This document shows, in pieces, positions 3,949-32,525 of a stretch of 43,863 nucleotides of DNA (position 1 is the first letter of the stretch; every line of letters begins with the position of its first letter). The notes under the pieces were generated by a model, which made no database searches, was not told the DNA's origin, and was given only the letters and a program-made list of their open reading frames with translations. Source of the DNA: Nemertoderma westbladi (taxonomy: Eukaryota; Animalia; Xenacoelomorpha). Location of the stretch: contig JAUCBJ010006931.1 in assembly GCA_032718475.1 (NCBI GenBank), positions 1-43,863 of the forward strand, read 5' to 3'. Position numbers and translations under genes: made by a program.

Positions 3949-4519
3949 GTAGTAGATATCCGGCAACTACAGTCACAGACACCGACTTTGCGGATGGCAT
4001 CGCCCTGCTCTCTAATACCCTAGCAGATGCACAGCTTCTACTAAATAAAGTGGAGAGGGCTGCTTAGGAGGTTGGATTGGATATAAATGCTACAAAGACC
4101 GAATTCATGACCTTTAATGTTGATGGAAATTTGACAACCATTGATAATAATCAACTAAGGAAGGTCGATGACTTCCAGTACCTTGGATCATGGATAGAGA
4201 GTAGCAAAAAGGAAATAGAAGTTAGGAAAGCAAAGGCTTGGGTAGCTCTATCAAAAATAGATACCATCTGGAAATCAGATCTCTCCAGGCACCTGAAGAC
4301 TAAGTTCTTTCGAGCCATAGTGGAAAGTGTATTTTTATATGGGGGTGAGACCTGGACACTGACTAAATCACTTGAACAACGAATTGATGGTTGCTACACA
4401 AGACTACTAAGTGCAGCGCTAAACATCAGCTGGAGACAACACATGACAAACGCCGAGCTTTATGGTACAATACCACATGTATCAACCACCCTCCGTGAAC
4501 GCAGATTAAGATTCAGTGG
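3949..4519 (+). pseudogene. 5'-truncated RTE-clade LINE, RT C-terminal part (left half, interrupted by the Polinton)
   Basis: SRYPATTVTDTDFADGIALL (FADD changed to FADG), stop at 4065, then INATKTEFM, FQYLGS, ESVFLYGGETW, RERRLRFSG. Confidence 0.85.
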
Positions 4520-5617
4520 AGTAGTAAGATGAACCCCTCTTTGGCGACAGTTTAGTCCAACTTCACACCTTGGGTGTTAAGTAGGTCATTAATTAATTAA
4601 ACAATTAATTAATTGGTCGATTAAACAATTAATTAATTGTTTAATCAATCGATTTGTATCAAATAATGTTGCCAAAGGCAATTTAATTTGATACAAATCA
4701 ATCAGATAGGGACGCGAAATGAATAAATTGTACTATAACAAATGAAATATACAACACAATAGGCACTGTACATTACAATATAATATACAATACATTTGTA
4801 TTATTTTTGCCATACAGTAGGTAAAGATAGAATTAAATATAAAGACACGAGCGGGGCCCAAAACATAAATTACCCTCACACAAAAATAAAGTGGACCAGT
4901 TTGGTCCTGAGTCATCCCTCAATAATCTGCGGCTGCTCGGGCTCTTATTAACCGTAGCATGACTAATCCAAACATCGAATCCTATACTGTATGTCAACGC
5001 GTGAATGGAGCCTGCTACAGAGTTTAAATTATTCAAACCTATAGCTTCGTTATTACATCAATTCGTCCAAGAAATTAGAATAAACATCTGCTCTTGCAAT
5101 AGTTTGCATTCTTTCATATTGTACTTTATGAAGCAGTCCACGCGCATATTAGCTCAACAACAAAGCCCTACCCAAACGCCATGTGTCAAATTAATTCCCA
5201 ACCATCTCTTTACTACAGTAGATACTGCAGTTTTTTTTTTGTTTGAAGTAATTTCAGATGCTCTAGTATAACATTAATTAACATACCCATTCATTCATTA
5301 CACGCAATTTTCTCCAACGCACCCCCCCGCTTCTCAATTCATCCCATTTCCCTTCGTAACTAATGTTTTACATTTAATTAACCCAATGAAATGTGTTTAT
5401 TATTCCCTCAATCCAATAGCGCGTCTCTCTCTCTCTCTTTTTTATTTCTATTGGTTCCCACAAGCTTCACTTTTATTTTCATTGGTTAGCCTTTCCCTTA
5501 TAAACCCCCATCCAACGCTTTGAACTTTACTTACAAAAATATTATTGACCATTTTACGTTTTATTTAAAGTTATAATACATTTATTGTTATACATAATAT
5601 TATATTTTCTTCAAGAT
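4520..5617 (+). repeat. Left terminal inverted repeat (~1.1 kb)
   Basis: Reverse complement of 19606-20679, with scattered substitutions and small indels. Homology stops at TTCTTCAAGAT. Confidence 0.95.
5383..5504 (+). promoter_or_regulatory. TIR-embedded Pol II promoter: four CCAAT/ATTGG boxes plus TATAAA
   Basis: CCAAT at 5383 and 5413, ATTGG at 5450 and 5481, TATAAA at 5499-5504. Mirrored in the right TIR (TTTATA at 19719-19724). Confidence 0.6.
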
Positions 5618-5744
5618 TGTTATACGTAATACATTTATTGTTATACATAATATATTGTTGCAAACATCAACGTGATTTGATTTTCCTTCTTATTATTCCT
5701 AATCGAGCAATTTTCTTTTTCCAATACCACGAATCAATCTGCAG

Positions 5745-5868
5745 GTAAGAACAATAAATTTGTGTTTTTATGAATTCGTTTAGTTTTAACATTATTACCT
5801 CAAAATAAATATCAACCCCGCGAAACCTTCCCAAACTTATTATTATTATTTAGTTTTTTATTTTATAG
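5745..5868 (+). other. Putative 5'-UTR intron of the pPolB gene
   Basis: CAG|GTAAGA donor and T-rich tract ending TTTTATAG|, 5 nt before the ATG at 5874. Confidence 0.55.
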
Positions 5869-5873
5869 CAAAC

Positions 5874-8800
5874 ATGCCTATGGCACCAAAATTCGTAGAC
5901 TGTCCTGTCTGCAATAAGAACATGCGCAGTGATAGTCTCAACAAACATCTCGGAACTCATTTTAAACAATATTCATGCGATTGTTGTGGCACCTGGTCCT
6001 CCGATAAGAAAACTATGGTTAGCCATCTAGCGCTATGTACGCAAGGTGGGACTGGGTTCAGATTTATCAACGAAGAAAACACTTGCAAGTGTGGCGAATC
6101 ATTCACTCTATCAGCCTTTAAAGAACACGATTGCTATACGCGACTCTTCTCTCGGAAACGCAAACAATCTCAAGCGCTTTTGTCACCACCACCTCCACCA
6201 AACATTCAATCTCCTAGGGTTGGCCCTTCTACTTCAAGACAACAGATTGGAGGTTCGAGCAACAACCCATTTTTATCATCCGTGAATAGCTCATCCCACA
6301 ACCGCTTATTTACATATACAAACACGTTACTTACACCACAATTAGATGTAGAGTTAACACTTAGAGAAAATGAAAGTTATATTTGGGATAGAGTGAGTCA
6401 ACATTTTAATAATGAATTTAATTTTATAAAAGTTTGGTTAACTATTTCTATCTTAATGGAAAGGGAGACATCTGAGGGTACTCAATTAGAAACCTTCAGT
6501 TTCAAATCAAACGCTTCAAATAATCAAATAACTTCTAATTTAGATTTTGAAAACTGGTTTTCGCAAACTATCGAACGAATAGATGAATTAATAGCAGTCT
6601 TTGTTTGCATGGGCAGTGGTTGGAATATTGTTTCAATTAAAGAAATCAATTTACAAATTTCTACCTTCAACCGCAACCCCTATTTCAAAGGACGTGGTGG
6701 TGGTTATATTTCTAAAATTTTAGCAAAGAAGCGGTGCATTATTAACTTAGATTGTCCCATTGGGGAATGTTTTAAGTACGCAGTAGTTGCTGCCGCTTGT
6801 TATAAAAAAATTGAAAGAAAGAAACAAAACATTAGTCGATTGTCAACATATACTCCATACATGTCCATGTTTGATTTCAGTACGATGAGTTTCCCAGTAG
6901 ATAGAGTAGTAGGCATCCCACGTTTTTTAGAAAGCAACCCTTTGTACTGCATTAATTTATTATTTTGGAGTACTGATAACATATTGAGCATTCTATCACA
7001 ACCAGATTCAGAACATTGCTTCCAAAAAACTGTTTTAAATTTATTGTTTATAGAAGGAAATCAAAAAAATTCAGGACATTACTGCGCAATTGTCAACCTA
7101 AATAGACTTATTAATAAACAAGGACAAGGGGACAAAAAAATTTGTGAGCGTTGTCTGAGAGCTTTTTATACTATCAACTCATTGCAAACTCATCGGGAAC
7201 TATGTTATACGAGCAAACGACAATTGGAACAAATGCCCACACCTGACAAATTAAAAATTAAATTCAATCGATTAGATAAGACTTTATCCCCTCCCTTTTG
7301 CATATATGCCGATATTGAAAGTGTTTTAGAACCTACATCAAACCCTAAATTAGTTCAAAAGCACATTGCTAGCGCCGCCGCATTTTATACAGTACCCAAT
7401 CGCGAGCTAATAAATCCCCCGCAAACATCATTACAAATGTTTAGAGACACTGGAACAAACCATGTTATAGACGATTTTCTCACTGCTCTCGAATCACACT
7501 GTAGGGAATTATACGAGTGGACTATTTCTGGTACAAACACCAATGTTCCTAAACATTTGACTCGGGCACAGCAACAAAATTTTGATAATGCTACAAACTG
7601 TTACACTTGTAACTGTTCTCTAACCCCTGATTCACACGGACTGAATCTAGCAGAAAATCTCAATACTAAAGTTTGTGACCACAACCATCTAACGGGAGCC
7701 TATCGCGGGGCGGCATGTGTTAGTTGTAACCGCAAACTTTCTCTTAAACGCAATAAATTTTATGTGGTGCTACACAACCTGAGGCATTACGATTCCCATT
7801 TAATCTTAAAAGAAGGTCTGAAAAACAGTTCTAGAACTCATTGGAAGATAAATGTAATTCCAAAGAACACTGAGACTTATATCAATATAGAAATATCATT
7901 TCCCATAGACAAAACCACGCACACAGCAAATGCAAAAGAATGTATTGTCATCAATCTTCTAGACTCTCTACAGTTCATGACAGCTAGTCTAGATAAGCTC
8001 AGTAGTTATCTTACTGCAAACAATTCTGATCTAACAAAAGCTATCCCACACACTTTGAAACAAATGAAAAATCTTTATCCCAATATTAGCGATTCCACTA
8101 TTAAAAATAAAGGTATATTTCCTTATAGCTATATACAATCCATAACAAACTTATACGAAACTCAATTACCACCAATCGAGAGTTTCTATAATGATTTACA
8201 GCTTGAAGACTGTAGCGAGCATAACTATCAGCGTGCCCAAACTAGTTGGGTTGAGCTTCAATGTCAAAACATATTTGATTATATGATGGGGTACTTGGCT
8301 CTAGATGTCACACTTCTCGCAGATACTTTCCAACAGTTTAGGGAACTATGTTTCTCCAATTATGGGTTAGATCCTCTGCATTATTATACTTCACCGGGGT
8401 TAACGTACGATGCAGCATTGAAATTTACAAACAGTGAAATTGAACTACTATCCGATGGAACTATTATAGCAGATTTTGAAAATAATATTCGCAGAGGGCT
8501 TGTATTTCTGAATACACACTTAGAGGAAGCTAATATACCTGGCAAACCAGAATACAACCCCTGTAAACCAGAAAAATACCTAATTCCTCTCGATGCGAAT
8601 AACCTTTATGGTTCTGCTCTCTCTCAGAAGCTCCCCTGCAGTAATATGAAAATCGTAGATACGCCAATAGATCTGGCTACAGTTGATGCCACTGGGTCAG
8701 TGGGATATTACTGTATCGTTGACCTTGAATACCCCCGAGAGATCCACGACGAAACTGCTGACCTACCACTAGGAGCGGAAAAAATGTCCATTCCCAAGAG

Positions 8801-9927
8801 CTTCCTCAGTACATACATGCAAGACCTCTGGCAACATTATAATCTCAATGATCAAGGGACCTATAAGCAATATAATGAGAAATATAGTAAACTGATTCTT
8901 CATCAATTCAAAAAAACTAATTATGGTATTCACATAAAATTACTCCAATTATACTTAAAATTAGGACTTCAAATAACACAGGTGCATAAAGTATACTCCT
9001 TCACTCAAAAATACATAATCAGAGACTATATCTCGTTTAATACATCCAAACGACAATCCGCTAAAAATGCATTCGAAGTTTTATTTTATAAACTACTCAA
9101 CAACTCACTCTATGGGAAAAGTCTTCAGAAGGTACGAGACCGGCTATCATTCCGACTCTGTACATCTCCAGAACAGTGCGACCTGCTATTATCAAAACCA
9201 AATCATGAGCGCTTCATCTCATTCTCCCCCTATCTCAGTGGTCACACTTTTACTAAAGAAGTAGCAGTACTCAATCAAGCTGTATTTATTGGAGCAACCA
9301 TCTTAGATCTTTCAAAGCTAGAGATGTATGATTACTATTACTGTAAACTGAAACCGCTCGAAGAAAAGCTGAGATGTGAAATTCGAGCCTTAGCCGGGGA
9401 CACGGACAGTTTCTTTCTTTCGGTTACCGGTGTTGAGCACAAAATATTCCTAGAAGCCATGTTTAACTCCGGCTTTCTAGACACTTCAAATTACGACCCC
9501 TCACACCCACTCTTTACAAATCAAAACAAGGCTTCCTTAGGTTTTTTGAAAGATGAAAGTAGAGGTCTATTATACAAATCATTTGTATTTTTGAAACCGA
9601 AAATGTATTCATTCGAGGCATACGACGCGCAGCCAAAGCGGACTTGCAAAGGAATTTCAAAAAATATTGTAGCCAAGCAATTAACACATAAACACTATTT
9701 AGACTGTTTTATCAACGAATCAACAGATTACACAAACAATACAATATTTACTTCTAGGGAGCATCAAATGTTTACAGGGAGAATAAAAAAAAAAAACATT
9801 AAGTCTCTGGGATACAAAATCATTCTGGATGACGAAATATTACAGTAGACCATATGGCCACTATATTACAGGATTAACTAAACCAACAAAAAAAACTGTA
9901 ATACCACCTTATTTAGTTGCAGAATAA
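5874..9927 (+). CDS. polB: Protein-primed family B DNA polymerase (pPolB) with N-terminal Zn fingers and an EndoVII/HNH-like insertion; frameshift in the A12 run at 9785-9796
   Basis: Exonuclease motifs YADIES, HNLRHYD, YLALDV; polymerase motifs DANNLYG, KLLNNSLYGK, GDTDS, KPKMY, KGI. The conserved tail KTLSLWDTK...PYGHY lies in the +1 frame and ends TAA at 9925-9927. Confidence 0.95.
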
Positions 9928-9928
9928 A

Positions 9929-10453
9929 ATGCCATACAAAGCAAGCAGCGGATCAACACCAATTCAAATAATCAATCGTCAATATACAGCTCAAACTGAA
10001 TTTCCAATTGATATAATCAAAGTTTCTCAACAACTAAAAGGTCAGATGCGGCAAAAACCAAAAATGTTTGTGTATAAGACTGGATCTGCGACAATTATGC
10101 TATTCCCAACTGGTTCAATAACAATAGTGGGTCCATGTAAAAATATTTGTAATGATTTACTTTATCTGAAACAATGTACCAACATACTAATTAAGAAAAT
10201 TAAATTAAATACAGTGACCAGACTAATTAAGTTACCATCTCTTAATTTTAAATCATTAAGTAAAAAGTGTGGACATCATTTTGTAAACAATGTAAAGGTA
10301 TATATTGATTTTACGCCGGAGCTCTTTTGTGGAATTCGATTGTATATTGGGCGATGTTATTTCAGTGTCTTTCACTCAATGAAAGTTATAAGTATGTGTC
10401 CTGTTGGTGATTTTGAAGAAGCTCTCATTATATTATTTAGTTTATTGAATTAA
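9929..10453 (+). CDS. TATA-box-binding protein (TBP)-like protein, 174 aa
   Basis: Two TBP-type repeats: PIQIINRQYTAQTEFPIDI..KPKMF..ATIMLFPTGSITIVG and KIKLNTV..FTPELFCGIRL..SVFHSMKV..FEEALIILFSLL. Compare TBP PQLQNIVST..NPKRF..TALIFSSGKMVCTG and KIQNMV..YEPELFPGL..LIFVSGKV..YEAFENIYPIL. Confidence 0.75.
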   Translation: MPYKASSGSTPIQIINRQYTAQTEFPIDIIKVSQQLKGQMRQKPKMFVYKTGSATIMLFPTGSITIVGPCKNICNDLLYLKQCTNILIKKIKLNTVTRLIKLPSLNFKSLSKKCGHHFVNNVKVYIDFTPELFCGIRLYIGRCYFSVFHSMKVISMCPVGDFEEALIILFSLLN

Positions 10454-10461
10454 TAAGTAAA

Positions 10462-10822
10462 ATTATCTCTCAATATACTACATGTCATTATACTGTATGT
10501 GCGGTTTTATATATATTTATGTGATTATATTATCTCTCAATATACTACATGTCATTATACTGTATGTGCGGTTTTATATATATTTATGTGATTATATTAT
10601 CTCTCAATATACTACATGTCATTATACTGTATGTGCGGTTTTATATATATTTATGTGATTATATTATCTCTCAATATACTACGTCATTATACTGTTTGTG
10701 CGGTTTTATATATTTATGTGATTATACTGTCTCTCAATATACTATATGTGATTATATTATCTCTCAATATACTACATCATTATACTGTATGTGCGGTTTT
10801 ATATATTTATGTGATTATACTG
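10462..10822. repeat. 67-bp tandem repeat (~5 copies) inside the Polinton
   Basis: ATTATCTCTCAATATACTAC... starts at 10462, 10529, 10596 and 10663, followed by degenerate copies. Confidence 0.95.
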
Positions 10823-11208
10823 CGTGTGGTTCTATATAATCATGTAACATATATACTAATTATAGTTTTATTAAATTTATGTAAAAAATATATTGATTTA
10901 TATTATTAATAACATCTTACCTTGAGAACAATTCTACCAATCTTTACAAGTAATGGGGACCCACCTCTCCTCACCAAACCCTTCCCAAAAAAAAAAGTCC
11001 ATAAGACCAAGGTTTACTGCACTTGTTCTCCATTGAGTGATTAGTTGTTAAACTGGTGAATTCATTATATAAATTTAAATATTTACTAAAGCCGCTAGAT
11101 GGCATACATTTGTGACGCGAACATTAGTTTCATATTATACTGTATAAACGTTAAAAGTCAACTATTATTTTAATAGATATAATAATAATTGTGTTATAAA
11201 AGGAAAAC

Positions 11209-11838
11209 ATGATGGATATAGTAGATATGCGGTTTCGTTTTGGAAGTACAATATTAATAGCCGGTCCTAGTGGTAGTGGAAAAACTTCTTTCTTGGAGAA
11301 AATGTTATTAAATAGGAAATTGATCTTTAACGAAACCCCAAACAGTATTACTTGGTTTTATGGACAGACGAAACCAATAATTAAAGGGGTTAATATTACC
11401 GCTTTAAATGAAATTCCAGAACACTTTAATGAAAATGTGAAAAACCATTCTATCATTATAATCGACGATTTGATGACAGAACTACAAAATTCCAAACAAG
11501 CGACTACGCTATTTACTAAAGTAGCTCGACATACAAATTCATTGGTAATTTTTCTCACTCAAAACCTTTATCAAAAAGGAGGAGAATCTAGGACCCGTTC
11601 CATTAATTCCACATATTTCTTATTGTTCAAAAATCCGAGGGATCAGACACAGATAAGAACTTTAGCCTATCAGATGAAACCAAATACCCCCAAATTCTTA
11701 ATCGCGGCATTTCAAGACGCAACAAAGGTTCCCTTTAACCCACTTCTTATTGATTTTCATCAATTAACGGATGATAGTCTTCGTATACGTGGGTATTTAT
11801 TTACAAATGAACATTGTGTTTATCAACCCGTGTCGTAA
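11209..11838 (+). CDS. A32/FtsK-like genome packaging ATPase
   Basis: Walker A GPSGSGKT, Walker B IIIIDD, ARH, LTQN, FKNPRD. Confidence 0.95.
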   Translation: MMDIVDMRFRFGSTILIAGPSGSGKTSFLEKMLLNRKLIFNETPNSITWFYGQTKPIIKGVNITALNEIPEHFNENVKNHSIIIIDDLMTELQNSKQATTLFTKVARHTNSLVIFLTQNLYQKGGESRTRSINSTYFLLFKNPRDQTQIRTLAYQMKPNTPKFLIAAFQDATKVPFNPLLIDFHQLTDDSLRIRGYLFTNEHCVYQPVS

Positions 11839-11851
11839 TATACGTAGAAGA

Positions 11852-11989
11852 ATGCTTCTATTAGCAATTGTCTGTTATTTAGTTATATTATACTTATTTG
11901 TGGTTTATCATCGACAAAGGTTTCTTAAATTTCTTAATATTATAGAACAAGTATGGAACTTAATATACGAAAGTATAGGAAAGAACTAG
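11852..11989 (+). CDS. Putative 45-aa single-pass membrane protein
   Basis: MLLLAIVCYLVILYLFVVY followed by HRQR. Fills the gap between the ATPase and the next gene. Confidence 0.45.
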   Translation: MLLLAIVCYLVILYLFVVYHRQRFLKFLNIIEQVWNLIYESIGKN

Positions 11990-12294
11990 AATTTTTGAAA
12001 AATAGCAACGCATTAGCGCGAGGAGCATTTATTCGAAAAAAAGCTAGTAGCGAATTAATACGACTTCTCGTTAATATTACACTGAATACACTCTATGGGA
12101 ATATAAATATTGATGGAAAGATTGTTAAAAAATTGAAGCCATATAAGAAATATATGAGGCGATTGAAATCGAAAAATTCAGTTTCACTTCAAAGACGTTC
12201 TCTCTCTCAGGCTGGGGGGTTCCTTCCACTTATTTTGCCACTGTTGATAGGCGCCACAAACATTGCCACAACTGTTGCCACAGCGTTAACATAA
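11953..12294 (+). CDS. Basic virion core protein with adenovirus pX-like C-terminus
   Basis: K/R-rich. Ends QAGG|FLPLILPLLIGA, an adenain-type cleavage site followed by a hydrophobic tail. Confidence 0.8.
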   Translation: MELNIRKYRKELEFLKNSNALARGAFIRKKASSELIRLLVNITLNTLYGNINIDGKIVKKLKPYKKYMRRLKSKNSVSLQRRSLSQAGGFLPLILPLLIGATNIATTVATALT

Positions 12295-12296
12295 CC

Positions 12297-12479
12297 ATGT
12301 CATTCAAGAAACTATATTTAATAACCCCCGAACAACATGCTAGGTTGCAGCCATCACATTTGAAAACTAAACCTTTAATTAAAGAAACAAAGAAAAAAGA
12401 TCAAAATAAACGGACAATAAACGATAGAAGAAAAGTGTTGAAACTGTTTGATTATACACGTCGCAAATCGCGAAAATAA
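12297..12479 (+). CDS. Small basic hypothetical protein (60 aa)
   Basis: Starts 2 nt after the previous stop. MSFKKLYLITPEQ start, K/R-rich. Its stop overlaps the next ATG. Confidence 0.55.
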   Translation: MSFKKLYLITPEQHARLQPSHLKTKPLIKETKKKDQNKRTINDRRKVLKLFDYTRRKSRK

Positions 12480-12766
12480 TGTCTTGGTTAAAAAAACTTT
12501 CAGTAACTTGCAATTTTCGTTGTCTGTGCAATTCTAGCAGTGTTACCTATGGCTATGATCAACAAGATGGTAGAAAAACGCTTAGCCAAAGCTTACTACA
12601 ATCCTTCAAGTGTTGCAGGGTTTTCCACTATAGGAAAGCTAGCAAAAGAGACGGGAGTCAATCCAAAACTCGTGAAAAGATGGCTTCAAAGTCAGCAAAC
12701 CTACACATTGCATACCCCAGCGAGGCGTCTGTTTCCCACAAGCCGAATGTATTTTTATGGAATTAG
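12479..12766 (+). CDS. Candidate Cys-rich ORF overprinted on the integrase 5' end
   Basis: TAATG stop/start overlap, CxxxCxC motif; in a different frame from the integrase. Confidence 0.35.
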   Translation: MSWLKKLSVTCNFRCLCNSSSVTYGYDQQDGRKTLSQSLLQSFKCCRVFHYRKASKRDGSQSKTREKMASKSANLHIAYPSEASVSHKPNVFLWN

Positions 12767-13620
12767 TGACACCATTCAGGCAGATTTAATAGATATGCAA
12801 AAATATCGCGCAACAAACTCAGGTTATGGATATATTCTAACCGCAATCAACTGTTTTAGTAAGAAGGGATGGGCATTACCATTGAAACGGAAGACTGGTA
12901 TTGAAATTAAACATGCACTACAGTCTATTTTTACTGAAGAAGTACCACGTAATTTATGTACAGATCAAGGGTTGGAATTCGACAATAAAGTTGTACTCAA
13001 TTACTTGAAAATGAAAAAAGTTAAATATTATACAACACGATCGCAGTTCAAAGCAGCCATTTGCGAAAGGTATAATAGAACGATAAAGACAAAGATGTAT
13101 AAAATTTTTAGTAGAAGAGGTAACCATAAGTGGCTTGCTATTCTACCAAAAATTGTATACTCTTATAATAATTCTATACATAGATCTATTGGAATGCCCC
13201 CAATTCAAGTCAATAAGTCGAATGAAGATAACGTGAGAAGAAACCTCTATGGAAATTTAGCTAAAATCATTGTAACAAAACCCAAATTGAGAATAGGTGA
13301 CAATGTGCGACTTAATATAGCTAAAACGGCGTTTGAAAAAGGTTATACAAAAAATTGGACCGGTGAGGTGTTTACTGTAAAACGTATAAGACTAGATCGT
13401 TTTCCTCAGCCTATGTATCATATAATAGATTCAGTTGATAGAGAAATAGAAGGAACATTTTACCCTCACGAATTGCAAAAGGTTACACAAACAACTGATA
13501 TTCAGCCAATCGAGTCCATTTTGAAGTCTCGAATAAAAAACGGTCGGAAGGAATTCCTTGTAAAATTTAAAAAACTATAAACGGAACTCTTGTTTGAACG
13601 AGTCCCAACTACGTAAATAA
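12567..13620 (+). CDS. int: Retroviral-like (rve) DDE integrase with C-terminal chromodomain-like region; probable frameshift at the A6 run 13569-13574
   Basis: QADLIDM, TDQGLEF, ERYNRTIK, YNNSIHRSIGMPP, FEKGY..NWT.EVF, IESILK..EFLVKF. The ORF as written stops at 13580. Confidence 0.92.
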
Positions 13621-13630
13621 ATCAACAAAA

Positions 13631-14458
13631 ATGAATAACTATATAACTTTATTCTCAAATGGACCTACAAACAAATTTCCTGATAACACCCTTTCGAAAT
13701 TTACGGTTGATCTACCCTATACAATCAATCTCAGTGGTGATGTAGAAGTGGGACTATCTGAAATTCAATACTGTTCCTCATTCTATAATATACGTCAACA
13801 ATCTCTGTTTACAATTTATTATGGAGATAGGACATCGCAAGTTGTTATATTTGAACCAGGACTATATACGAGTGTAGAAGCCATTATTAATAAAATCAAT
13901 CAACAAATTGATCACCCGAAGTGGCCCCAAATTCAATATTTCAAATACTCAAATAAAATCGAGCTCGCTACTTCGCAACACTTTTCTTTTGAAATTACTG
14001 GAGATTTGATTACAATACTCGGTTTTGAGGAGTTTACGCAGGATTATGATCCGAGGGATGTACCTTATCTAGCTAATTGGTATGATTATTGGAGTGTAAA
14101 TGTTAGTGAATTTGGTTCTTTAACATTCAAACAGCAACCGGGACAGCGTGCTCAATTTAGGGGGATTTGTCCCTTTTCTTGCGATTTAGTCTTAGGGCGA
14201 CATAATTTGTTTATCTATAGTGACATTACTTCTCATGTGACTGTAGGAAATACGACGGCACCGTTATTACGCACGGTACCTCTCGAACTTGAGCATAATA
14301 AAGTTATAACACGCGAATTTAAAAAAATTTATTACAGACCGGTTGCTAGAACAGTTGTTAATCAGATAAATATTGAATTACGCAACGAAAAAGGAGAACT
14401 AATATTATTTAAAGGAGGTGCAACAATAATTACCCTACACTTAAAAAGTAAGTCATAA
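13631..14458 (+). CDS. Minor capsid protein (penton, single jelly-roll), copy 1
   Basis: SN..FPDNTLSKFTVDLP..L.G.VEVGLSEI and FIYSDI..VG..APLLR..Y.PV..I.I.L.N..G..I.F.GG..ITLH. Confidence 0.85.
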   Translation: MNNYITLFSNGPTNKFPDNTLSKFTVDLPYTINLSGDVEVGLSEIQYCSSFYNIRQQSLFTIYYGDRTSQVVIFEPGLYTSVEAIINKINQQIDHPKWPQIQYFKYSNKIELATSQHFSFEITGDLITILGFEEFTQDYDPRDVPYLANWYDYWSVNVSEFGSLTFKQQPGQRAQFRGICPFSCDLVLGRHNLFIYSDITSHVTVGNTTAPLLRTVPLELEHNKVITREFKKIYYRPVARTVVNQINIELRNEKGELILFKGGATIITLHLKSKS

Positions 14459-15252
14459 TGGAGAAAATATTATATTTACCCTCGAATTCTTCACCTAAAC
14501 GATTTCCATTAAATCAACCTTCTAACTTTAATGTGGAACTATCTGAACCATTGCGTTTTAGTGGAAAGTGGATGGTGGGTTTGTCAGAATTTGTTTACCT
14601 CTCCTCGGTTCATAATTTAGAAGATACATTCATTTATATTCGGAGTTTACAAGGAACTAAAAGAAAATATATAATACCATCTGGTTGCTATACTAATGTG
14701 GAGGCGTTGCTTACACAGCTAAATATAGATGGTCTCAATTCCCATTTAGAAATAAGACAAAATGAGCTTTATGACAACATTAGTATTCAGTTTATCGACG
14801 AAAGTAAAGTTGTTCGTTTTTATGGAAATAAGTTGATTGAGTTACTTGGATTGCGGGGATTAGAAAATGAGTATTATGTTAATAAAAATAAATTTCTTGT
14901 TAGCCTAAAAAATGATTATCTACAAATAACGCGAAGGGGGGAAATAGAGGGTGATTCTGATATATTACATATTCAAAAAGCAGCAAATGTTTTTATGGGA
15001 AACATTAGTATATTTTCAAATATTTGCGGAAATGAGATTGTTGGAAATCAACTGAAACCCCTCTTAAGATCTATTCCTTATCAAGGAGATTATGGTAAGC
15101 TTGTTCATCATGAATTCACAAATATTAATTATAAATCCATTGATATGCAAAATATAGAAACAATAAATATACAGTTAAAAAATGATCGAGATGAATTCAT
15201 AAAGTTTAATAATGGTACTGTAATTGCGACATTAATTTTGAAACACCAATAA
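14458..15252 (+). CDS. Minor capsid protein (penton), copy 2
   Basis: Same N- and C-terminal motifs (PSNSS..FP.N..SNF.V.L..W.VGLSE; IFSNI..VG..PLLR..F..I.Y). TAATG-coupled to copy 1. Confidence 0.82.
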   Translation: MEKILYLPSNSSPKRFPLNQPSNFNVELSEPLRFSGKWMVGLSEFVYLSSVHNLEDTFIYIRSLQGTKRKYIIPSGCYTNVEALLTQLNIDGLNSHLEIRQNELYDNISIQFIDESKVVRFYGNKLIELLGLRGLENEYYVNKNKFLVSLKNDYLQITRRGEIEGDSDILHIQKAANVFMGNISIFSNICGNEIVGNQLKPLLRSIPYQGDYGKLVHHEFTNINYKSIDMQNIETINIQLKNDRDEFIKFNNGTVIATLILKHQ

Positions 15253-15385
15253 ACGATAAATAAGGAAATATATTTAGGAAGCAATGAGTTATAAAGATTA
15301 TTATCAAAGGAGTTTGTAGAAAACATTACAGAGAACACTTTATAAGGTTATTCGCGGCGGTGTTAAAAATAAACAGACTGGGACG

Positions 15386-15892
15386 ATGAAGGGTCTCAGC
15401 TCAGAAATGGTTACACCTCCTTCCATAATGAGGCAACGATTACAATTATTAGAATGGAAACGAAAGGCGGGGGGAGGACTACCTTATTTTGAGGGGGGAT
15501 ATAGACATCGACACATGAACAGTCGCACAGTTTTTGTGAGACACGGTCAACGAGGTAAAGGTATCCTTGGAAATATTATTCGGATTGCAACTAAAGTAGT
15601 GCCCAAAGTTATTAAGCCCGTCGCGCGAGCAGCAATTCGCAAAAGTGCTCCTTTTGTAAAAAAGACAGGGAGAAAAATTGTCAAACGAGTAATTCGTCGG
15701 GGAATTCCACAACTTAAAAAGATTGGAAAGAAATTAGCAGAACAGGCTCTCGCCAGCTCAAAACCTTCCACTAAACGAGTAGCTCATAAAATTATTGAAG
15801 AAGTTTTAAATGCTGCTGATGGGAGGTCAATAAACGAAACTCGCAAAAAACGCAAATCAAAAAAGCATCACTGTCCAGATATTTTTGGTTAA
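15386..15892 (+). CDS. Basic core/membrane-active protein (Polinton PW-like; pVI/pVII analogue)
   Basis: AGGG|LPYFEG and QRGKG|ILGNIIRIATKVVPK amphipathic helix. An in-frame upstream ATG at 15284 (MSYKDYYQ) is cut off by TAG at 15317. Confidence 0.75.
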   Translation: MKGLSSEMVTPPSIMRQRLQLLEWKRKAGGGLPYFEGGYRHRHMNSRTVFVRHGQRGKGILGNIIRIATKVVPKVIKPVARAAIRKSAPFVKKTGRKIVKRVIRRGIPQLKKIGKKLAEQALASSKPSTKRVAHKIIEEVLNAADGRSINETRKKRKSKKHHCPDIFG

Positions 15893-15918
15893 ACTAAATA
15901 ATAACACTGGAAGAAACC

Positions 15919-17157
15919 ATGGAAGAACTAAATTTATTTAATCACAGTGATGTTCAGAGTGTAATTGAAGAAAGTTTTGAGCAGGAAATATACCCTGTGA
16001 CTACATTGGGAGAGGGCACATCAGTTATAGATTTCATGATTGAAAAGTCAGAAGATTACTATACGATAGGAAGTGAAACAACACTACAATTAGTATATCG
16101 TATTGTAACAACAATACGACCTGACAATGGCGCAGTTTATCAAACACCACTAAGCCTCTCTACTCTATTTTCAAAAATTAGTGTTTTGATTAATGAGCGG
16201 GAGGTAGAGTCTAATACTGCCAACTATCCCTATAAAGCTTTCCTAAAAGCGGTCTTACTTAATGATCAGAGTACAAAAGAAACGATTTTAGCCGCCGAAG
16301 GGTTTGCAGAACAAGAAGCGTTTGGTGTTCCTGTAGACTTTGCTGCAGCTGCTCATTTGGAAAGTAGACCATATTATGTTCAGGGGTCTCTATTTGTTGA
16401 CCTTTTTGAACAGGTTAAATTTATCCCACCCAAAACTAGTATAAGAATTAGATTAACAAGAGCTACAAATGCATTTAACTTAGTATGTATTGCAGCCGTA
16501 CAAGAGCCTCGAATCAATATATCTAATGCTTTGCTGAAAATTAAACGAGTAAAATTGGATCCATATATACGTCAACAACATATAGAACAATTAAAAATAG
16601 GAGATTATATTTATCCAATTATGCAGAATGAGGTGACAACCTTTACTATAGCAAATGGTCAACAATCTCATGTGAGGGAAAATTTGTTTACAAGCAAGAA
16701 TGTACCTCGCTTTGTTAATATTGTCATGGTTCGAAATGATTCTTACAATGGAAACTTAAGATCTAATTCACTATTGTTTGATCACTTTAATGTGAATTAC
16801 TTACAACTTACGTTGGATGGTAAGGTAATTGGAGGTGTGACATATAAACCAAATTTTGCTAATGGACAATATATTAATGAGTATTGCGCCAGTCAAAAAA
16901 ACCTTCTATCTATAACCAGAGGTACAAACAACGGCATTACTCCCACTAGATTTCGTGATTTATATCCAATATTTTCTTGGAATTTATCCCCCACGGGATT
17001 TATTGATGAAGACGAACGAAACCCACATCAAATAGGCAATGCTAGATTAGAGATTGCTTTCTCAGCTCCTTTACAAAATACAATTAACGTAATTATGTGG
17101 GTGGGATATGATAGAACTGTGAATATCAGCAATGTTGGATCAGTAACTATTTTCTAG
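15919..17157 (+). CDS. Double jelly-roll major capsid protein
   Basis: EELNLF..Q..I....EIYP..IDF.I, LFSKISVLIN, YPYKAFLK, DLFEQ.K.IP, P..V.I.MV.N..YNG, G..RLEI.F..PL; 412 aa. Confidence 0.92.
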   Translation: MEELNLFNHSDVQSVIEESFEQEIYPVTTLGEGTSVIDFMIEKSEDYYTIGSETTLQLVYRIVTTIRPDNGAVYQTPLSLSTLFSKISVLINEREVESNTANYPYKAFLKAVLLNDQSTKETILAAEGFAEQEAFGVPVDFAAAAHLESRPYYVQGSLFVDLFEQVKFIPPKTSIRIRLTRATNAFNLVCIAAVQEPRINISNALLKIKRVKLDPYIRQQHIEQLKIGDYIYPIMQNEVTTFTIANGQQSHVRENLFTSKNVPRFVNIVMVRNDSYNGNLRSNSLLFDHFNVNYLQLTLDGKVIGGVTYKPNFANGQYINEYCASQKNLLSITRGTNNGITPTRFRDLYPIFSWNLSPTGFIDEDERNPHQIGNARLEIAFSAPLQNTINVIMWVGYDRTVNISNVGSVTIF

Positions 17158-17167
17158 AAAGAAAAAC

Positions 17168-17596
17168 ATGTTGAACTCATATGATTTGAATAATTTCCCA
17201 ATAGGAGAACATTATCGTGGTTCTTTCGCCATTGATCAATTACCAGCGAAGGATGGCTCTAAAATGAGCTTCATTTCAAATACTCAAGCCGCTCATTTAC
17301 CTGGTATGCACTGGGTCGCTGTTTTTATGAATGAAAATATAGGTGAATACTTTGATTCATTTGGAGTGTTCCCCCCGGCTCGTATAGAAGACTGGCTGTT
17401 GCGTAATACAATAAAATGGTCAAGGACACGAAAAGTGGTTCAACACCCTCTAAGGACGAGTTGTGGGGGATACTGTTTATATTACTTATCTGAACGATCA
17501 AAAACTGACACGCCTCTACGCAAGTTTGGAACAGACTTGAAACAAAATGAAAAGATACTTGCATGTTGGTTGCGGAACAAAGCCATAATGAATTGA
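17168..17596 (+). CDS. Adenain-like cysteine maturation protease
   Basis: NT...G.HWVA, EYFDSFG..P, Q.....SCGGYCLYYL (His/Asp/Gln/Cys catalytic set). Confidence 0.93.
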   Translation: MLNSYDLNNFPIGEHYRGSFAIDQLPAKDGSKMSFISNTQAAHLPGMHWVAVFMNENIGEYFDSFGVFPPARIEDWLLRNTIKWSRTRKVVQHPLRTSCGGYCLYYLSERSKTDTPLRKFGTDLKQNEKILACWLRNKAIMN

Positions 17597-17893
17597 TATT
17601 ATTAATTGTGTTACAATGTGTTATATCTTATGTGTTACAATGTGTCATATCTTAAATGTTACTCTGCTATATGTATATGTGTTATGTTATAAATATATAT
17701 TTCAATGTTGCTATATTAAAAATATGAAAATAGTCGACTATATTTCATTTTTCTTTTTTCATCTTTGGATAAATAATATAGGGGTTAAACAAAGAACATC
17801 AAAGCAGTTAAACAGTTACATTTAACATTTAGACAGTAAACAGTAACAGTAAACATTTACATGACCAGTTACAATAGACAAGTAACATAAAGT

Positions 17894-19607
17894 TTAGTTT
17901 ATATCCACAGCATCTAGCTTTATCTTTTTCTGTTCTAATGGAGGATAGTGAGCTAATTTTCGTTTTACAATTTCCATCGAATATCTTTTAGAGATGTTGG
18001 GGGAATCATTAGGGTGAAATAGATTGAGGTGGATCTGCTTGGGGAGGAAAACTGCGTCTTTTAGTGTGTGTTTGAGAAAGTTGATGCAACACTCAACAGC
18101 ATAGTTTGAAGGTAGGGTTAATTTGTTTGTTGTCTTCAGGCTGACAATAATTGTTTCTGATGGTGTATGTTGAATGTGTATAAGGGGGGTGAGATAGTAA
18201 TGGGAGGAAGTGGATTGTTGAATGGGATGAAAGTTGGAGAAATCACTCGCTTTTATATTTAAACCATCGGTAAACTGAAACGTGGTTGATTTCAAATCTT
18301 TTTTGATGACGGGCCATATGCCAACATAAGCTTCGCCTTTGAATGAATAAATGAAAGCCGCTACTGATTCGTATAAATTAAGACACTGGTGATTAGGTAG
18401 TTGTAGTTGCTTTGGTTCATAATCACTATTGTTGGCCAATGACTTTAGTTCAGAGAGTGCTTCTCGGGCGCGATCTGTATTGTCAATAGAGAACATGTAG
18501 TCATAGCGTCTGTCAGAAATTTCAAGGGTTTCGCAGTTGTAAGCGGTATAAATTTTTATTCGATCTGAAATTAATTCTTCGTGGTTGACTTCATCGTAGC
18601 ATTCGTATCCTTCGACCGCAGAATCGAACCATGAAATTTTAAGAAGTTCATTTCTCGTGAGTAAAAGTGCATCTCTTGTGGAAACAATAACTTTGTTTGA
18701 ATCAACCTCAACGCCGCTCGCGATTGCAATGTTTCTTTTATTATTAATATTTGTGATATAACCAAAAGTAGAACTATCGAAAGAAACATAGTTCTCTGGC
18801 TCTAAGACAATGTGCGAGATTGGATTGATGTAAGGACGACAAATGTTTATATAATGTTGTAGTAAAGCAGCCGCGGTGTCTGAAATGGTTAACCAACCCC
18901 CATCTACTGTATCTTCTAGTTGTATTAAATCAAATAGGTTTTAGTGGGGATGTTTTCGAATAACGAACAACTTTAAAATTAAAACCAAAATAATGTGCTT
19001 TGCTGTTGTTGTAGAAACAGGTTATTTCATTCAATTGTTCAATAAAAGTTAGTACATCATATCCAAACAGTTTGAAGAAACGAGATTCATCTTTGAGGGG
19101 ATGAATCGAGGCGTTCCAAATAATTAAAAGAATTGAGTTTGAAATATTATGAAAATCAAACAGACACTCATCAACAAAAAAGGAAGCTTTGAGTGTTGAC
19201 ATACCAAGGAGCTTGTTTGCAGATTCTTGTGTTACATTGCTGTGGATATATTCAACAACCGGTTGAGGTATTACAAATGTTTCTAACGAGGTTGTCAGAT
19301 TGAACGTTATATTCGATTCTGATTTGTGCAGTTTGAAACCATGGTTTGCGGAATGAAATTTGTCATTATTTAGAGTTTGATATTGACCATCCTTCAACTC
19401 AAAGCAGGATCGTAGAATGAAATGTGCATAATTTGCTGGAATGAGATGGGGTTGGTTAGATGAAGTGGTAACCGTCATTGGAAAGCGTTTGTTCGAAGGA
19501 TCAAAATATAAACCGAAAGAGTTGTCTGAGAGAGATATTTGATTTACGTTGGAAACAATTTTTACTTGAGGGAAGTTGAACTTTTGAAGGAGTTGAGCTT
19601 GAGCCAT
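17894..19607 (-). CDS. ~570-aa hypothetical protein split by one frameshift near 18941 (joins ORFs 18930-19607 and 17894-18496)
   Basis: The frame of 17894-18496 stays open without Met up to 18940, overlapping the end of the upstream ORF. Removing one A gives ...TSPLNLFDLIQ.... NLS-like C-terminus PPLEQKKIKL. Confidence 0.7.
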
Positions 19608-20679
19608 CTTGAAGAAAATATAATATTATGTATAACAATAAATGTATTATAACTTTAAATAAAAAGTAAAATTGTCAATAATATTTTTGTAAGTAAAGTT
19701 CGAAGCGAAGGGTGGGGGTTTATAAGGGAAAGGATAACCAATGAAAATAAAAGTGAAGCTTGTGGGAACCAATAGAAATAAAAAGAGAGAGAGAGAGATG
19801 CGCTATTGGATTGAGGGAATAATAAACACATTTCATTGGGTTAATTAAATGTAAAACATTAGTTAGGTTGGGAAATGGGATGAATTGAGAAGCGGGGGGG
19901 TGTGTTGGAGAAAAGTGTGTGTAATGAATGAATGGGTATGTTAATTAATGTTACGCTAGAGCATCTCTGAAATTACTTAAAAAAAAAAAAACTGCAGTAT
20001 CCACTGTAGTAAAGAGATGGTTGGGAATTAATTTGACACATGGCGTTTGGGTAGGGCTTTGTTGTTGAGCTAATATGCGCGTGGATTGCTTCATAAAGTA
20101 CAATATGAAAGAATGCAAACTATTGCAAGAGCAGATGTTTATTCTAATTTCTTGGATGACTTGATGTAATAGCGAGGCTGTGGGTTTGAATAATTTAAGC
20201 TCTGTAGCAGGCCCCATTCACGCAGGTCCCATTCACGCATTGATGTTTGGGTTAGTCATGCTACGGTTAATAAGAGCCCGAGCAGCCGTAGATTATTGAT
20301 GGATGACTCAGGGTCAAACTGGTCCACTTTATTTTTGGGTGAGGGTAATTTATGTTTTGGGCCTCGCTCGTGTCTTTATATTTAATTCTACCTTTACCTA
20401 CTGTATGGAATAAATAATACAAATGTATTGTATATTATATTGCACAGTGCCTATTGTGTTGTATATTTCATTTGTTATAGTACAATTTATTCATTTCGCG
20501 TCCCTATCTGATTGATTTGTATCAAATTAACATTATTTGATACAAATCGATTGATTAAACAATTAATTAATTGTTTAATCGACCAATTAATTAATTGATT
20601 AATTAATTAATGACCTACTTAACACCCAAGGTGTGAAGTTGGACTAAACTGTCGCCAAAGAGGGGTTCATCTTACTACT
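19606..20679 (-). repeat. Right terminal inverted repeat
   Basis: Reverse complement of 4520-5617. Confidence 0.95.
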
Positions 20680-21737: not shown

Positions 21738-22508
21738 TTATTTTAGTTCCACTGAGTATTTGCAAATGAACGAACAATTAAAATCAATGAAATCGTTGAG
21801 TGATGAAAATGACGGATGAAATACCAGAACGTGTTGTTTATGGTTATAGTTGTCCAGGCCATGATTACCACCGGTTAAACCATTACGATTCGAGAATGTC
21901 AGTTGTCCAAACCTTGCAAACATTTGCTCCACTGTTAGTTGCAACCCATTGCTCCATTTCCACACACCTTCATGATCTCTGTCAGTGGCTCCTACAAAGT
22001 ATGCAGATACTCCATACGGCTCAACCATCTCTTTTAACCATCGCATTTCCGCTTTGAAGTTCTCCTCCGGGTTCAAGTACAGCAGTTTGGCTCTCTTATC
22101 TTCACATTCGGCCTTGGCATTGTCCCAAGTTGTTGACGTTGGATCCAGCCAATAGCAGCTCCCCTGTCTGTATTTCCAGCCAACTTTACATGTCGGAGAC
22201 CGGGAGAAGTACCCCCCTTTTACATGTTGAACCAGACCGGTTGTATCAACATCACTAGCCTCGATATCTTTTAGCTGACAGAGCTTCTCAACCTGCTTGT
22301 AGTTAAACGATAAGCATCCATGGGTGGACGAACAAGTTATTGCGCACTGAGCGACGCTGTCTTTAAAGCTTTTGTTGCCAAGGTTACTTCCTTCTAGAAC
22401 GTGGTTGTTACCAGCTACACTTCTGTATATTGTGGTGGTTCTTATACCAAATATAGGATGTAAGTAAAGTACTGAGAGTATTAAATATATATATAAGAAT
22501 CGAAACAT
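21738..22508 (-). CDS. Secreted PAN/Apple plus C-type lectin domain protein (single exon, host gene)
   Basis: Signal peptide; QCAITC..GCLSFNY..CQL (PAN); C..GW....SCY..TWDNAKAEC, FVGATDRDHEGVWKWSNG, FICK (CTLD). Confidence 0.85.
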   Translation of the reverse strand: MFRFLYIYLILSVLYLHPIFGIRTTTIYRSVAGNNHVLEGSNLGNKSFKDSVAQCAITCSSTHGCLSFNYKQVEKLCQLKDIEASDVDTTGLVQHVKGGYFSRSPTCKVGWKYRQGSCYWLDPTSTTWDNAKAECEDKRAKLLYLNPEENFKAEMRWLKEMVEPYGVSAYFVGATDRDHEGVWKWSNGLQLTVEQMFARFGQLTFSNRNGLTGGNHGLDNYNHKQHVLVFHPSFSSLNDFIDFNCSFICKYSVELK

Positions 22509-30929: not shown

Positions 30930-31099
30930 CTGAAACATTAATAGATTAATTGCAGGCCAATTTACAAATTATAAGCAAATGTAAAATGAATAAGGCGAAA
31001 AAGAATAAGCCCTAGCTAGCTGCCTAGAGATATCCGCTGATACGCTGAAGGCCATTTATTCCATCTAAAAAATGCACAACATTCTACTGTTCTCAAACA

Positions 31100-32353: not shown

Positions 32354-32525
32354 TCTCAAACACGTAGGCCTATTATTTATTGGTACCGGTATCCTGTACA
32401 TAAGTAATATATATATTGCTTATATGCAAATGCAATAGAGGCATATTGCAGTATTGCATAGCAGCATAGCTAGGCCTACATTAAATGTTCCAGAACGTAG
32501 AGCGTAGACCGCTGGACCGACCTAC

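What the first reader, a model, noticed from the sequence alone, without database searches (positions are those of the whole stretch)
9929..10453. Polinton encodes its own divergent TBP-like protein, packed directly behind pPolB
Seen: a 174-aa ORF starts 1 nt after the repaired pPolB stop. It has the two-repeat TBP core pattern, with Asn in each first strand (IIN, KLN) and candidates for all four DNA-kinking Phe (KPKMF, MLFPTG, PELFCG, SVFHS). It has no N-terminal extension or introns. Known: TBP homologues occur in large nucleocytoviruses, and herpesviruses use a TBP-like late-gene factor (ORF24/UL87/BcRF1). TBP is not part of the standard Polinton gene set as I know it. Inference: a small integrating virus that makes an early viral TBP to redirect host Pol II to its late capsid block, or to act as a TBP decoy. 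I cannot verify novelty without a search.
Basis: partly seen in the sequence, partly recalled or inferred. Interest (0 to 1): 0.92.

Follow-up and report, generated by a model that had tools for sequence, protein, structure and literature searches.

The report
Maverick TBP with matching late-gene box
A virus-like Maverick/Polinton element in an animal genome carries its own strongly altered TATA-binding-protein gene, and most of its putative capsid, packaging and integration genes sit behind one shared variant TATA box, which this protein likely reads as a one-protein switch for late viral genes.

Summary
The ORF at 9929-10453 is real and encodes a two-lobed TBP homologue: AlphaFold/VIA Z 14.9 against 7.8 for the next fold; 35 of 35 PDB profile hits are TBP. 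It lies in a full-length Maverick (4520-20679, 6-bp TSD). Other copies keep the frame, and 5 of 6 variants are synonymous.

Only 3 of 4 kinking Phe remain (F99 lost), and the second Asn slot holds Thr. The basic N-lobe patch and one TFIIB glutamate are also gone.

New here: the box (A/T)ATAAACG occurs 6 times in the element. All six lie 55-144 nt upstream of ATPase, integrase, penton-like, core and MCP genes; none precedes pPolB, TBP or the minus-strand genes. Permutation support is 3/400 at k=7 but absent at k=6 and k=8, and polyA or stop-codon overlap is a caveat.

Best reading (about 0.6): a viral late-promoter TBP that uses host Pol II. No expression or binding data exist.

TBP is already named, without description, in a MELD-virus figure legend (Starrett 2021). 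This scan has noted Polinton TBPs with similar boxes in other genomes.

The parts
9929..10453 (+). Divergent TBP homologue, 174 aa (P0001), two-lobed saddle
   Evidence: intact in other copies, 5 of 6 variants synonymous
4520..20679 (.). Whole Maverick/Polinton element, AGTAGT termini, perfect 6-bp target-site duplication, inserted in a multi-copy repeat (LINE-like, recalled)
   Evidence: contigs join across the empty site
4520..5617 (+). Left terminal inverted repeat (about 1.1 kb, 95-99% complementary to the right one); holds TATAAACC at 5499
19606..20679 (-). Right terminal inverted repeat; holds TATAAACC at 19724 (-), 117 nt before the 225-aa ORF
5874..9927 (+). Protein-primed family B DNA polymerase; 3' end frameshifted in this copy (ORF stops at 9848, other-frame tail stops at 9927)
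   Evidence: family B motifs read from the translation (motifs recalled; no pPolB profile hit); Endonuclease_7 E 8e-4
10462..10822 (.). 67-bp tandem array (4.5 copies plus degenerate tail) directly after the TBP stop; carries TATAAAA five times on the minus strand
11143..11150 (+). Box TATAAACG, 66 nt before the ATPase ATG
11209..11838 (+). A32-like packaging ATPase
   Evidence: Pfam Pox_A32 23.6 bits, above cut-off 22.8
11837..11844 (+). One-mismatch box AATATACG, 116 nt before the 113-aa ORF
11953..12294 (+). Basic core protein with adenovirus pX-like motif (weak)
   Evidence: Pfam Adeno_PX E 0.036
12405..12423 (+). Two boxes AATAAACG, 144 and 133 nt before the integrase ATG
12549..13580 (+). 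Retroviral-like integrase with partial chromodomain
   Evidence: Pfam rve E 4.8e-6, Chromo E 0.067
13576..13583 (+). Box TATAAACG, 55 nt before the 275-aa ORF; overlaps the integrase stop in this copy
13631..15252 (+). Two tandem ORFs (275 and 264 aa, joined by a TAATG overlap), putative minor capsid/penton-like
   Evidence: position and mutual resemblance; identity inferred, no convincing profile hit
15248..15255 (+). Box AATAAACG, overlapping the 264-aa ORF stop; 138 nt before the 168-aa ORF ATG and 36 nt before an upstream in-frame ATG
15386..15892 (+). Basic core-like protein (putative)
   Evidence: identity inferred
15829..15836 (+). Box AATAAACG, 90 nt before the putative MCP ATG
15919..17157 (+). 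Putative major capsid protein, 412 aa
   Evidence: size and position between core protein and protease; inferred, no profile hit
17082..17089 (+). One-mismatch box AATTAACG, 86 nt before the protease ATG
17168..17596 (+). Adenain-like cysteine protease
   Evidence: Pfam Peptidase_C5 E 0.0056
17894..19607 (-). Two unassigned minus-strand ORFs (200 and 225 aa; a 72-aa ORF lies between them); no exact box

Best explanation
The ORF encodes a divergent TBP homologue inside a full-length Maverick, and it likely acts as a virus-specific TATA-binding factor that would bind the (A/T)ATAAACG box and bring host RNA polymerase II to the capsid, packaging and integrase genes.

Shown: the fold; an intact frame across copies; the residue pattern; six exact boxes, all before late-block genes and none before pPolB or TBP.

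Inferred steps: (1) TBP is made early together with pPolB, probably by stop-restart translation. It starts 1 nt after the pPolB tail stop, and the two other box-less plus-strand genes (12297, 14458) also start within 3 nt of the upstream stop. (2) The C-lobe keeps both Phe but has lost P191, which would relax the first base (A or T in the box). (3) The N-lobe, which faces the 3' end of a TATA box (orientation recalled), has lost F99 and shortened its stirrup, which would suit the non-canonical C at position 7. (4) The family's FEPE stirrup would still recruit host TFIIB; this copy keeps only the second Glu. (5) Loss of the basic N-lobe helix would free it from TFIIA, TAF1 and Mot1 control.
For: Fold: VIA Z 14.9, rmsd 2.4-2.5 A over 158-159 residues to yeast and human TBP; next non-TBP Z 7.8. 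Foldseek 1vol E 1.5e-8, TM 0.72, and every listed row to rank 44 is TBP. The only hit among 1.84 billion representatives (P0003, E 2.4e-4) is itself Pfam TBP at 1.5e-17 with two stretches. The family profile hits 35 of 35 TBP entries in the PDB; HH probability 97.7.

Selection: no indels, and 5 of 6 listed variants synonymous in 4 runs (at most 3 samples), P 0.002-0.018.

Box: ATAAACG occurs 6 times on the element's plus strand, 0 on the minus strand, and once in 27.7 kb outside. All 6 lie within 150 nt of five late-block ATGs; 3 of 400 random window sets did as well at k=7. Of 42 (A/T)ATAAA words, CG follows 6 of 16 in upstream windows and 0 of 26 elsewhere (Fisher p 0.0015). With one mismatch, 7 of 9 late-block genes score against 18.6% background, and 0 of 2 for pPolB/TBP.

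Literature: C at position 7 inactivates the yeast HIS3 TR element (PMC4457894, passage). P191 favours T at position 1, and KSHV ORF24 is a TBP mimic with a more polar face that reads TATT late promoters (PMC12529657).
Against: No RNA, start-site or binding data. The motif was found post hoc, after earlier scan notes suggested looking. It is not significant at k=6 (154/400) or k=8 (240/400), and the p-values are uncorrected. 4 of 6 sites contain AATAAA (a polyA signal) and 2 of 6 overlap a stop codon, so gene-end position may inflate the signal. Spacing to the ATG is loose (55-144 nt). The TIRs carry TATAAACC, which also has C7, before pPolB (375 nt) and the 225-aa ORF (117 nt), so C7 is not strictly late. 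Cellular TBP can bind a C7 box through a Hoogsteen pair (PDB 1QN3), so host TBP might read it.

P0001 is the most diverged member (branch 3.56 against <=0.46). It has E186->T, R105->V, G210->M and G216->C, which could mean a weakened or altered function. Ravarani 2020 (PMC7221094) argue that most viral TBPs pair with a viral TFIIB and are unlikely to recruit the host's. The gene context of the relatives could not be seen.
Confidence: 0.6

Rival explanations
1. The protein is a general TBP substitute for all C7-type promoters of the element, including the TATAAACC in both TIRs. It would give a positive-feedback boost rather than an early-to-late switch.
For: TATAAAC also occurs in both TIRs upstream of pPolB and the 225-aa ORF. 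The lost F99 would suit position 7 regardless of position 8.
Against: The exact 8-mer ending in CG occurs only before late-block genes (6 of 6), and the TIR sites end in CC.
Confidence: 0.15
2. The protein is a dominant-negative decoy. It would occupy host TATA boxes or titrate TFIIB to damp host (for example immune) transcription, and host TBP would read the viral boxes.
For: Loss of the N-lobe basic patch and of one TFIIB Glu in this copy. Host TBP can bind a C7 box through a Hoogsteen pair. Net charge is strongly basic (22 K+R against 8 D+E).
Against: Four relatives keep both stirrup Glu. A decoy gives no reason for a shared non-consensus box before the late genes.
Confidence: 0.12
3. The protein is a non-transcriptional DNA-bending factor, binding A/T tracts in the TIRs or the adjacent 67-bp array to help protein-primed replication, integration or packaging.
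For: It is packed against pPolB, and a TATA-rich tandem array follows the stop directly.
Against: The conserved PE(L/I)F stirrup (5 of 5) is a TFIIB-contact feature (PMC7221094). The boxes sit before genes.
Confidence: 0.08
4. The gene is a decaying captured passenger, and the boxes are polyA signals or stop-codon context.
For: Very long branch, changed conserved Gly residues, AATAAA in 4 of 6 boxes.
Against: The frame is intact in all 4 runs laid and 5 of 6 variants are synonymous. The trailing CG is not part of a polyA signal (Fisher p 0.0015).
Confidence: 0.05

Closest known systems
Cellular TBP (Pfam PF00352; yeast 1ytb/7o4i_O, human 1cdw/5fur_A)
   Same: Two-lobed saddle (Z 14.9); N69, T112, F116, G119, G125, P187, E188, F190, G192, F207 and K211 kept.
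   Different: 13-17% identity. F99 lost, N159->T, P191->C, R105->V, E186->T. N-lobe stirrup and helix H2 shortened, without the basic patch. 8-residue insert before the C-lobe stirrup. No N-terminal extension.
Beta/gamma-herpesvirus TBP mimics: KSHV ORF24, EBV BcRF1, HCMV UL87 (PMC12529657: passages and section 15 read)
   Same: A virus-encoded TBP fold in a nuclear DNA virus, a more polar DNA face (L205->S in both; V122 polar), and a variant TATA box before late genes (inferred here).
   Different: ORF24 is a 752-aa multidomain protein that keeps all four Phe and P191, binds Pol II directly, needs five partner proteins and reads TATTWAA. This is a bare 174-aa core with no recognisable partner. 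No homology beyond the fold was shown.
NCLDV TBPs (BFVD hits, e.g. Heterosigma akashiwo virus 01 A0A1C9C511, EsV-1-53; PMC7221094 sections 9 and 12 and passages read)
   Same: Viral TBP with L5.1 Phe kept and N-lobe signature lost.
   Different: Nearly all of those viruses also encode a TFIIB-like protein (PMC7221094) and most an RNA polymerase (recalled). This 16-kb element encodes no recognisable RNA polymerase or TFIIB.
TBP-labelled gene in MELD viruses with adintovirus-like PolB (Starrett et al. 2021, PMC8502044, Fig. 5 legend; section 3.4 read)
   Same: A TBP-like gene in a Polinton-related mid-size dsDNA virus.
   Different: There it is only a label in a figure whose section concerns non-animal hosts, with no description, residues or promoter. 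I could not see the figure, so identity with this family is unknown.
Mavericks/Polintons (Barreat and Katzourakis 2021, PMC8097293, passages read)
   Same: TIRs with (AGT)2 ends, 6-bp TSD, pPolB, INT, ATPase, protease, putative major and minor capsid genes.
   Different: TBP is not among their eight core genes; the words TBP and TATA do not occur in that paper's main text.

Membership tests
TBP superfamily (PF00352) | Two-repeat saddle fold | tested here: met
   pLDDT 78.8; Z 14.9 over 158-159 residues
TBP superfamily (PF00352) | Pfam gathering score | tested here: inconclusive
   P0001 18.8 bits < 22.9; relative P0003 63.7 bits
TBP superfamily (PF00352) | L5.1 Phe in both lobes (F116, F207) | tested here: met
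   F59 and F148, invariant in 5 of 5
Canonical cellular TBP | Four intercalating Phe | tested here: not met
   F99 slot is Gln/Cys or deleted in the 4 members that cover it
Canonical cellular TBP | N69 and N159 | tested here: not met
   N69 kept (N16); the N159 slot is Thr in 5 of 5
Canonical cellular TBP | Two acidic TFIIB-contact residues in the C-lobe stirrup | tested here: not met
   P0001 has T129 and E131; the four relatives have both Glu
Eukaryotic TBP | Basic patch on N-lobe helix H2 (TFIIA/TAF1/Mot1/Brf1) | tested here: not met
   H2 is 12 residues with one Lys; shortened and acidic in relatives
TBP superfamily (PF00352) | Binds and bends TATA-like DNA | not testable with these tools
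   needs EMSA, SELEX or a structure
Herpesvirus vTBP (ORF24/BcRF1/UL87) | Large multidomain protein with Pol II-binding N-terminal domain and C-terminal DNA-binding domain | tested here: not met
   174-aa bare core against 752 aa
NCLDV TBP-TFIIB pair | Viral TFIIB in the same genome | tested here: inconclusive
   no TFIIB profile hit; the two unassigned ORFs remain unidentified
Maverick/Polinton | TIRs with AGTAGT ends and 6-bp TSD | tested here: met
Maverick/Polinton | Integrase, A32-like ATPase, adenain-like protease | tested here: met
   (ATPase above cut-off; rve and Peptidase_C5 below cut-off, E 4.8e-6 and 0.0056)
Maverick/Polinton | Protein-primed PolB and double jelly-roll capsid | tested here: inconclusive
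   PolB motifs visible (recalled); no profile hit for PolB or MCP; not folded

The most novel reading that the evidence does not exclude
A lineage of animal Mavericks runs the smallest known viral late-transcription switch. One 174-aa rewired TBP has traded F99, N159 and P191 for recognition of a C7 TATA variant that host TBP uses poorly, escapes TFIIA/TAF1/Mot1 control, and plugs into host TFIIB-Pol II with no other viral factor. That would be an orthogonal TBP-promoter pair and direct evidence of an early/late programme in Polintons.
Probability: 0.45. Interest if true: 0.85.

Novelty: new variant of a known kind. Interest (0 to 1): 0.66.

Why it matters
Whether animal Mavericks are working viruses, and how they time capsid production, is open. 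A dedicated TBP plus a matching box before the structural genes makes this testable with one small protein and an 8-base sequence. It would be a minimal, apparently independent parallel to the six-protein herpesvirus late complex. It would also be a natural TBP of altered specificity, informative on how TBP reads positions 1 and 7, and possibly useful as an orthogonal transcription part.

Tried and rejected
No whole genome is held for this window, so copies could be seen only through sequencing-run contigs.

Searches that gave nothing:
- Word-index search with P0001 alone: 0 of 21 candidates.
- No related loci in viral or metagenome contigs for P0001, the family alignment, P0003, the putative MCP or the ATPase. 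The gene context of P0003-P0006 is therefore unknown; two lie on 15.7- and 12.3-kb contigs, and none carries a name.
- No RNA holder on record was listed; one run guessed as RNA had a share of 0.07. This is no evidence either way.
- The two unassigned minus-strand ORFs stayed unidentified (Atlas best 0.81; model pLDDT 50.7 with no Foldseek hit at E<=0.001).
- Paper search for Hoogsteen + TBP + TATAAAC: 0 papers.
- No tRNA genes in the window.

Tree of 11 proteins: the family is one side of a 100/99 branch, but P0001 is a very long branch. The donor (host or virus) is unresolved, and no true host TBP was available.

No complex prediction was run, because only an archaeal stand-in for TFIIB was available.

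Full report
THE OBSERVATION. The ORF 9929-10453 (+) encodes 174 aa; 0 of 2000 shuffles of the same bases stayed open. It lies in a 16.2-kb element (4520-20679) with TIRs of about 1.1 kb at 95-99% complementarity, AGTAGT ends and a perfect 6-bp TSD. These match the Maverick criteria in PMC8097293 (passages). Pfam shows an A32-like ATPase (above cut-off), an rve integrase, an adenain-like protease and a weak pX motif. pPolB, the penton-like pair, the core protein and MCP are assigned from motifs and position (recalled or inferred; no profile hit). Contigs of three DNA runs cover most or all of the element (30, 30 and 25 of 30 bins), show mixed alleles, and join across the empty site of the target repeat. 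The element is thus present in several samples and probably in many copies; depth is not a copy number. Flanking C-type lectin/PAN and NEDD4/Bsd2 matches point to an animal host (inferred).

IT IS A TBP HOMOLOGUE. Alone, the protein gives Pfam TBP E 0.0014, below the cut-off, and no PDB sequence hit. The full HMMER scan of 1.84 billion representatives returned one protein, P0003 (E 2.4e-4, 28% identity), which is Pfam TBP at E 1.5e-17 in two stretches. P0004-P0006 extend the family. The family profile matches 35 PDB sequences at E<=1, all TBP; HH-align against four ordinary TBPs gives probability 97.7. An AlphaFold2 model on the 4-sequence alignment (pLDDT 78.8) matches TBP by Foldseek (1vol, E 1.5e-8, TM 0.72; first non-TBP at rank 45, TM 0.36). 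VIA-align over 48,161 chains puts five TBP entries at Z 13.0-14.9 and the next fold at 7.8. The top BFVD hits include NCLDV TBPs. The Atlas lists 30 of 30 hits with the TBP family, top score 0.95, though its recognition value (1838) is below the 2300 that marks strong evidence. The profile and model results lean partly on the relatives.

ANATOMY. Numbering is yeast TBP, as in Table 1 of PMC12529657, with other positions counted along the alignments and tabulated. Kept: N69, T112, F116, G119, G125, P187, E188, F190, G192, F207, K211. Lost in the whole family: F99 (Gln/Cys, or deleted in the MAFFT register), N159 (Thr in 5 of 5), P191 (Cys/Ile), L205 (Ser/Asn), V122 (Thr/Arg), I194 (Arg/His). 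Lost only in P0001: E186 (Thr; relatives keep FEPE), R105, G210 and G216. N-lobe helix H2 is short with one Lys, so the basic patch that PMC7221094 (section 12) ties to TFIIA, TAF1, Mot1 and Brf1 is gone. The N159 register lies in a low-confidence part of the alignment, but two methods agree and N94 is not conserved.

SELECTION. Four runs (at most three samples) laid on the ORF show no indels and six substitutions, five synonymous (P 0.002 against all changes, 0.018 against transitions only). The number is small and contigs drop rare variants.

A MATCHING BOX. Earlier scan notes on other genomes suggested looking for a shared promoter motif. Enumerating 7-9-mers upstream of 14 ORFs gave ATAAACG. 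It occurs six times on the element's plus strand, never on the minus strand, and once in the other 27.7 kb. As (A/T)ATAAACG it sits 66 nt before the ATPase, 144 and 133 before the integrase, 55 before the first penton-like gene, 138 before the core ORF (36 before an upstream in-frame ATG) and 90 before MCP. One-mismatch versions precede the pX-like gene and the protease. pPolB, TBP and the two minus-strand genes have no exact box. In a permutation over 11 plus-strand starts, 3 of 400 random window sets matched the best 7-mer; at k=6 and k=8 the result was not significant (154 and 240 of 400). CG follows (A/T)ATAAA in 6 of 16 upstream cases and 0 of 26 others (p 0.0015). Against the reading: four sites contain AATAAA, two overlap stop codons, spacing is loose, and both TIRs hold TATAAACC. 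TBP and the two late-block genes without any box (12297, 14458) all start within 3 nt of the preceding stop, which would fit coupled translation from the upstream mRNA (inferred).

MECHANISM. TBP's P191 favours T at box position 1 (PMC12529657); its loss fits A/T there. C at position 7 inactivates the yeast HIS3 TR element and forces a Hoogsteen pair on cellular TBP (PMC4457894 passage; PMC8643651 passages; PDB 1QN3 title). The lobe facing that end (orientation recalled) is the one that lost F99. I therefore favour a viral TBP that reads a box the host factor uses poorly, made early with pPolB, and recruiting host TFIIB-Pol II (0.6). Rivals: general booster of all C7 promoters (0.15), decoy (0.12), replication or packaging DNA-bending factor (0.08), passenger (0.05). 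None of the functional steps is shown.

ORIGIN. An 11-protein tree separates the family (100/99) but cannot place it; P0001's branch is 3.56. The stirrup PE(L/I)F resembles eukaryotic rather than archaeal-type PEQF sequences, which is a hint only.

WHAT IS KNOWN. Searches: polinton + TATA-binding protein (5 papers), maverick + polinton + TBP (2), polinto + TBP (8), adintovir + TATA (4), and Maverick/Polinton/promoter/late gene/capsid since 2021 (33, 20 listed). Among the papers I opened, only Starrett et al. name TBP in Polinton-related viruses, as a figure-legend label (preprint 10.1101/697771 passages; PMC8502044 passages and section 3.4). The figure itself is not held. The supplement is cut at 4 million characters, its slides are unreadable, and no TBP or TATA was found in the part held, so more may lie there. 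PMC8097293, 10.64898/2026.06.19.733378 and PMC12220804 have no relevant TBP or TATA passage in the main text. The other listed papers were seen as listings only, and subscription journals and Repbase were not searched. PMC7221094 was read as outline, passages and sections 9 and 12; PMC12529657 as passages and section 15. This scan has 30 unchecked notes on Polinton TBPs in at least four other genomes, some naming a TATAAAC box. They agree with my reading but are not independent evidence; none matched this protein by sequence.

VERDICT. A real, strongly rewired TBP in an animal Maverick, with a plausible cognate late box. It is a new variant of a known kind (virus-encoded TBP for late promoters), barely mentioned in print for this group. 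Interest 0.66.

Noticed in passing
window 10462-10822: A 67-bp tandem array (4.5 copies, 95% matches) right after the TBP stop carries TATAAAA five times on the minus strand, pointing back into the TBP gene. It could be an antisense promoter, a TBP-binding array or an origin/enhancer.
   Followed up: partly
window 5499-5506 (+) and 19717-19724 (-): Both TIRs carry TATAAACC about 1 kb from the ends, facing inward toward pPolB and the 225-aa ORF; a candidate early promoter.
   Followed up: partly
window 17894-19607 (-): Two unassigned ORFs (200 and 225 aa) with no convincing hit in Pfam, PHROGs or NCBIfam. The Atlas (225 aa) and Foldseek (200 aa) also gave nothing; the 200-aa ORF ends in a basic, NLS-like tail.
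   Followed up: partly
window 15284-15892: The basic core-like ORF has an upstream in-frame ATG at 15284 that is interrupted by a stop in this copy.
   Followed up: no
window 12479-12766: A 95-codon ORF overlaps the integrase start in another frame and begins at a TAATG overlap, 63-74 nt after the two boxes; it may be the gene those boxes serve.
   Followed up: no
window 4107-4532 and from 20680: The Maverick interrupts a very high-depth repeat whose translation resembles the 3' part of a LINE ORF (recalled); contigs join across the empty site.
   Followed up: partly
window 5874-6100: The pPolB ORF begins with zinc-finger-like motifs and has an Endonuclease VII-like zinc domain at residues 575-622.
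   Followed up: no
window 31099-32354: A separate palindromic element with nested inverted repeats built from 49-bp units (MITE/foldback-like).
   Followed up: no
window 21738-22508 (-): Intronless 256-aa ORF with PAN and C-type lectin domains about 1 kb right of the element, next to a 21-bp array of about 72 copies (22651-24153).
   Followed up: no
L001 5517-6071: A near-canonical eukaryote-type TBP on a 14-kb giant-virus MAG contig, used here only as an outgroup.
   Followed up: partly
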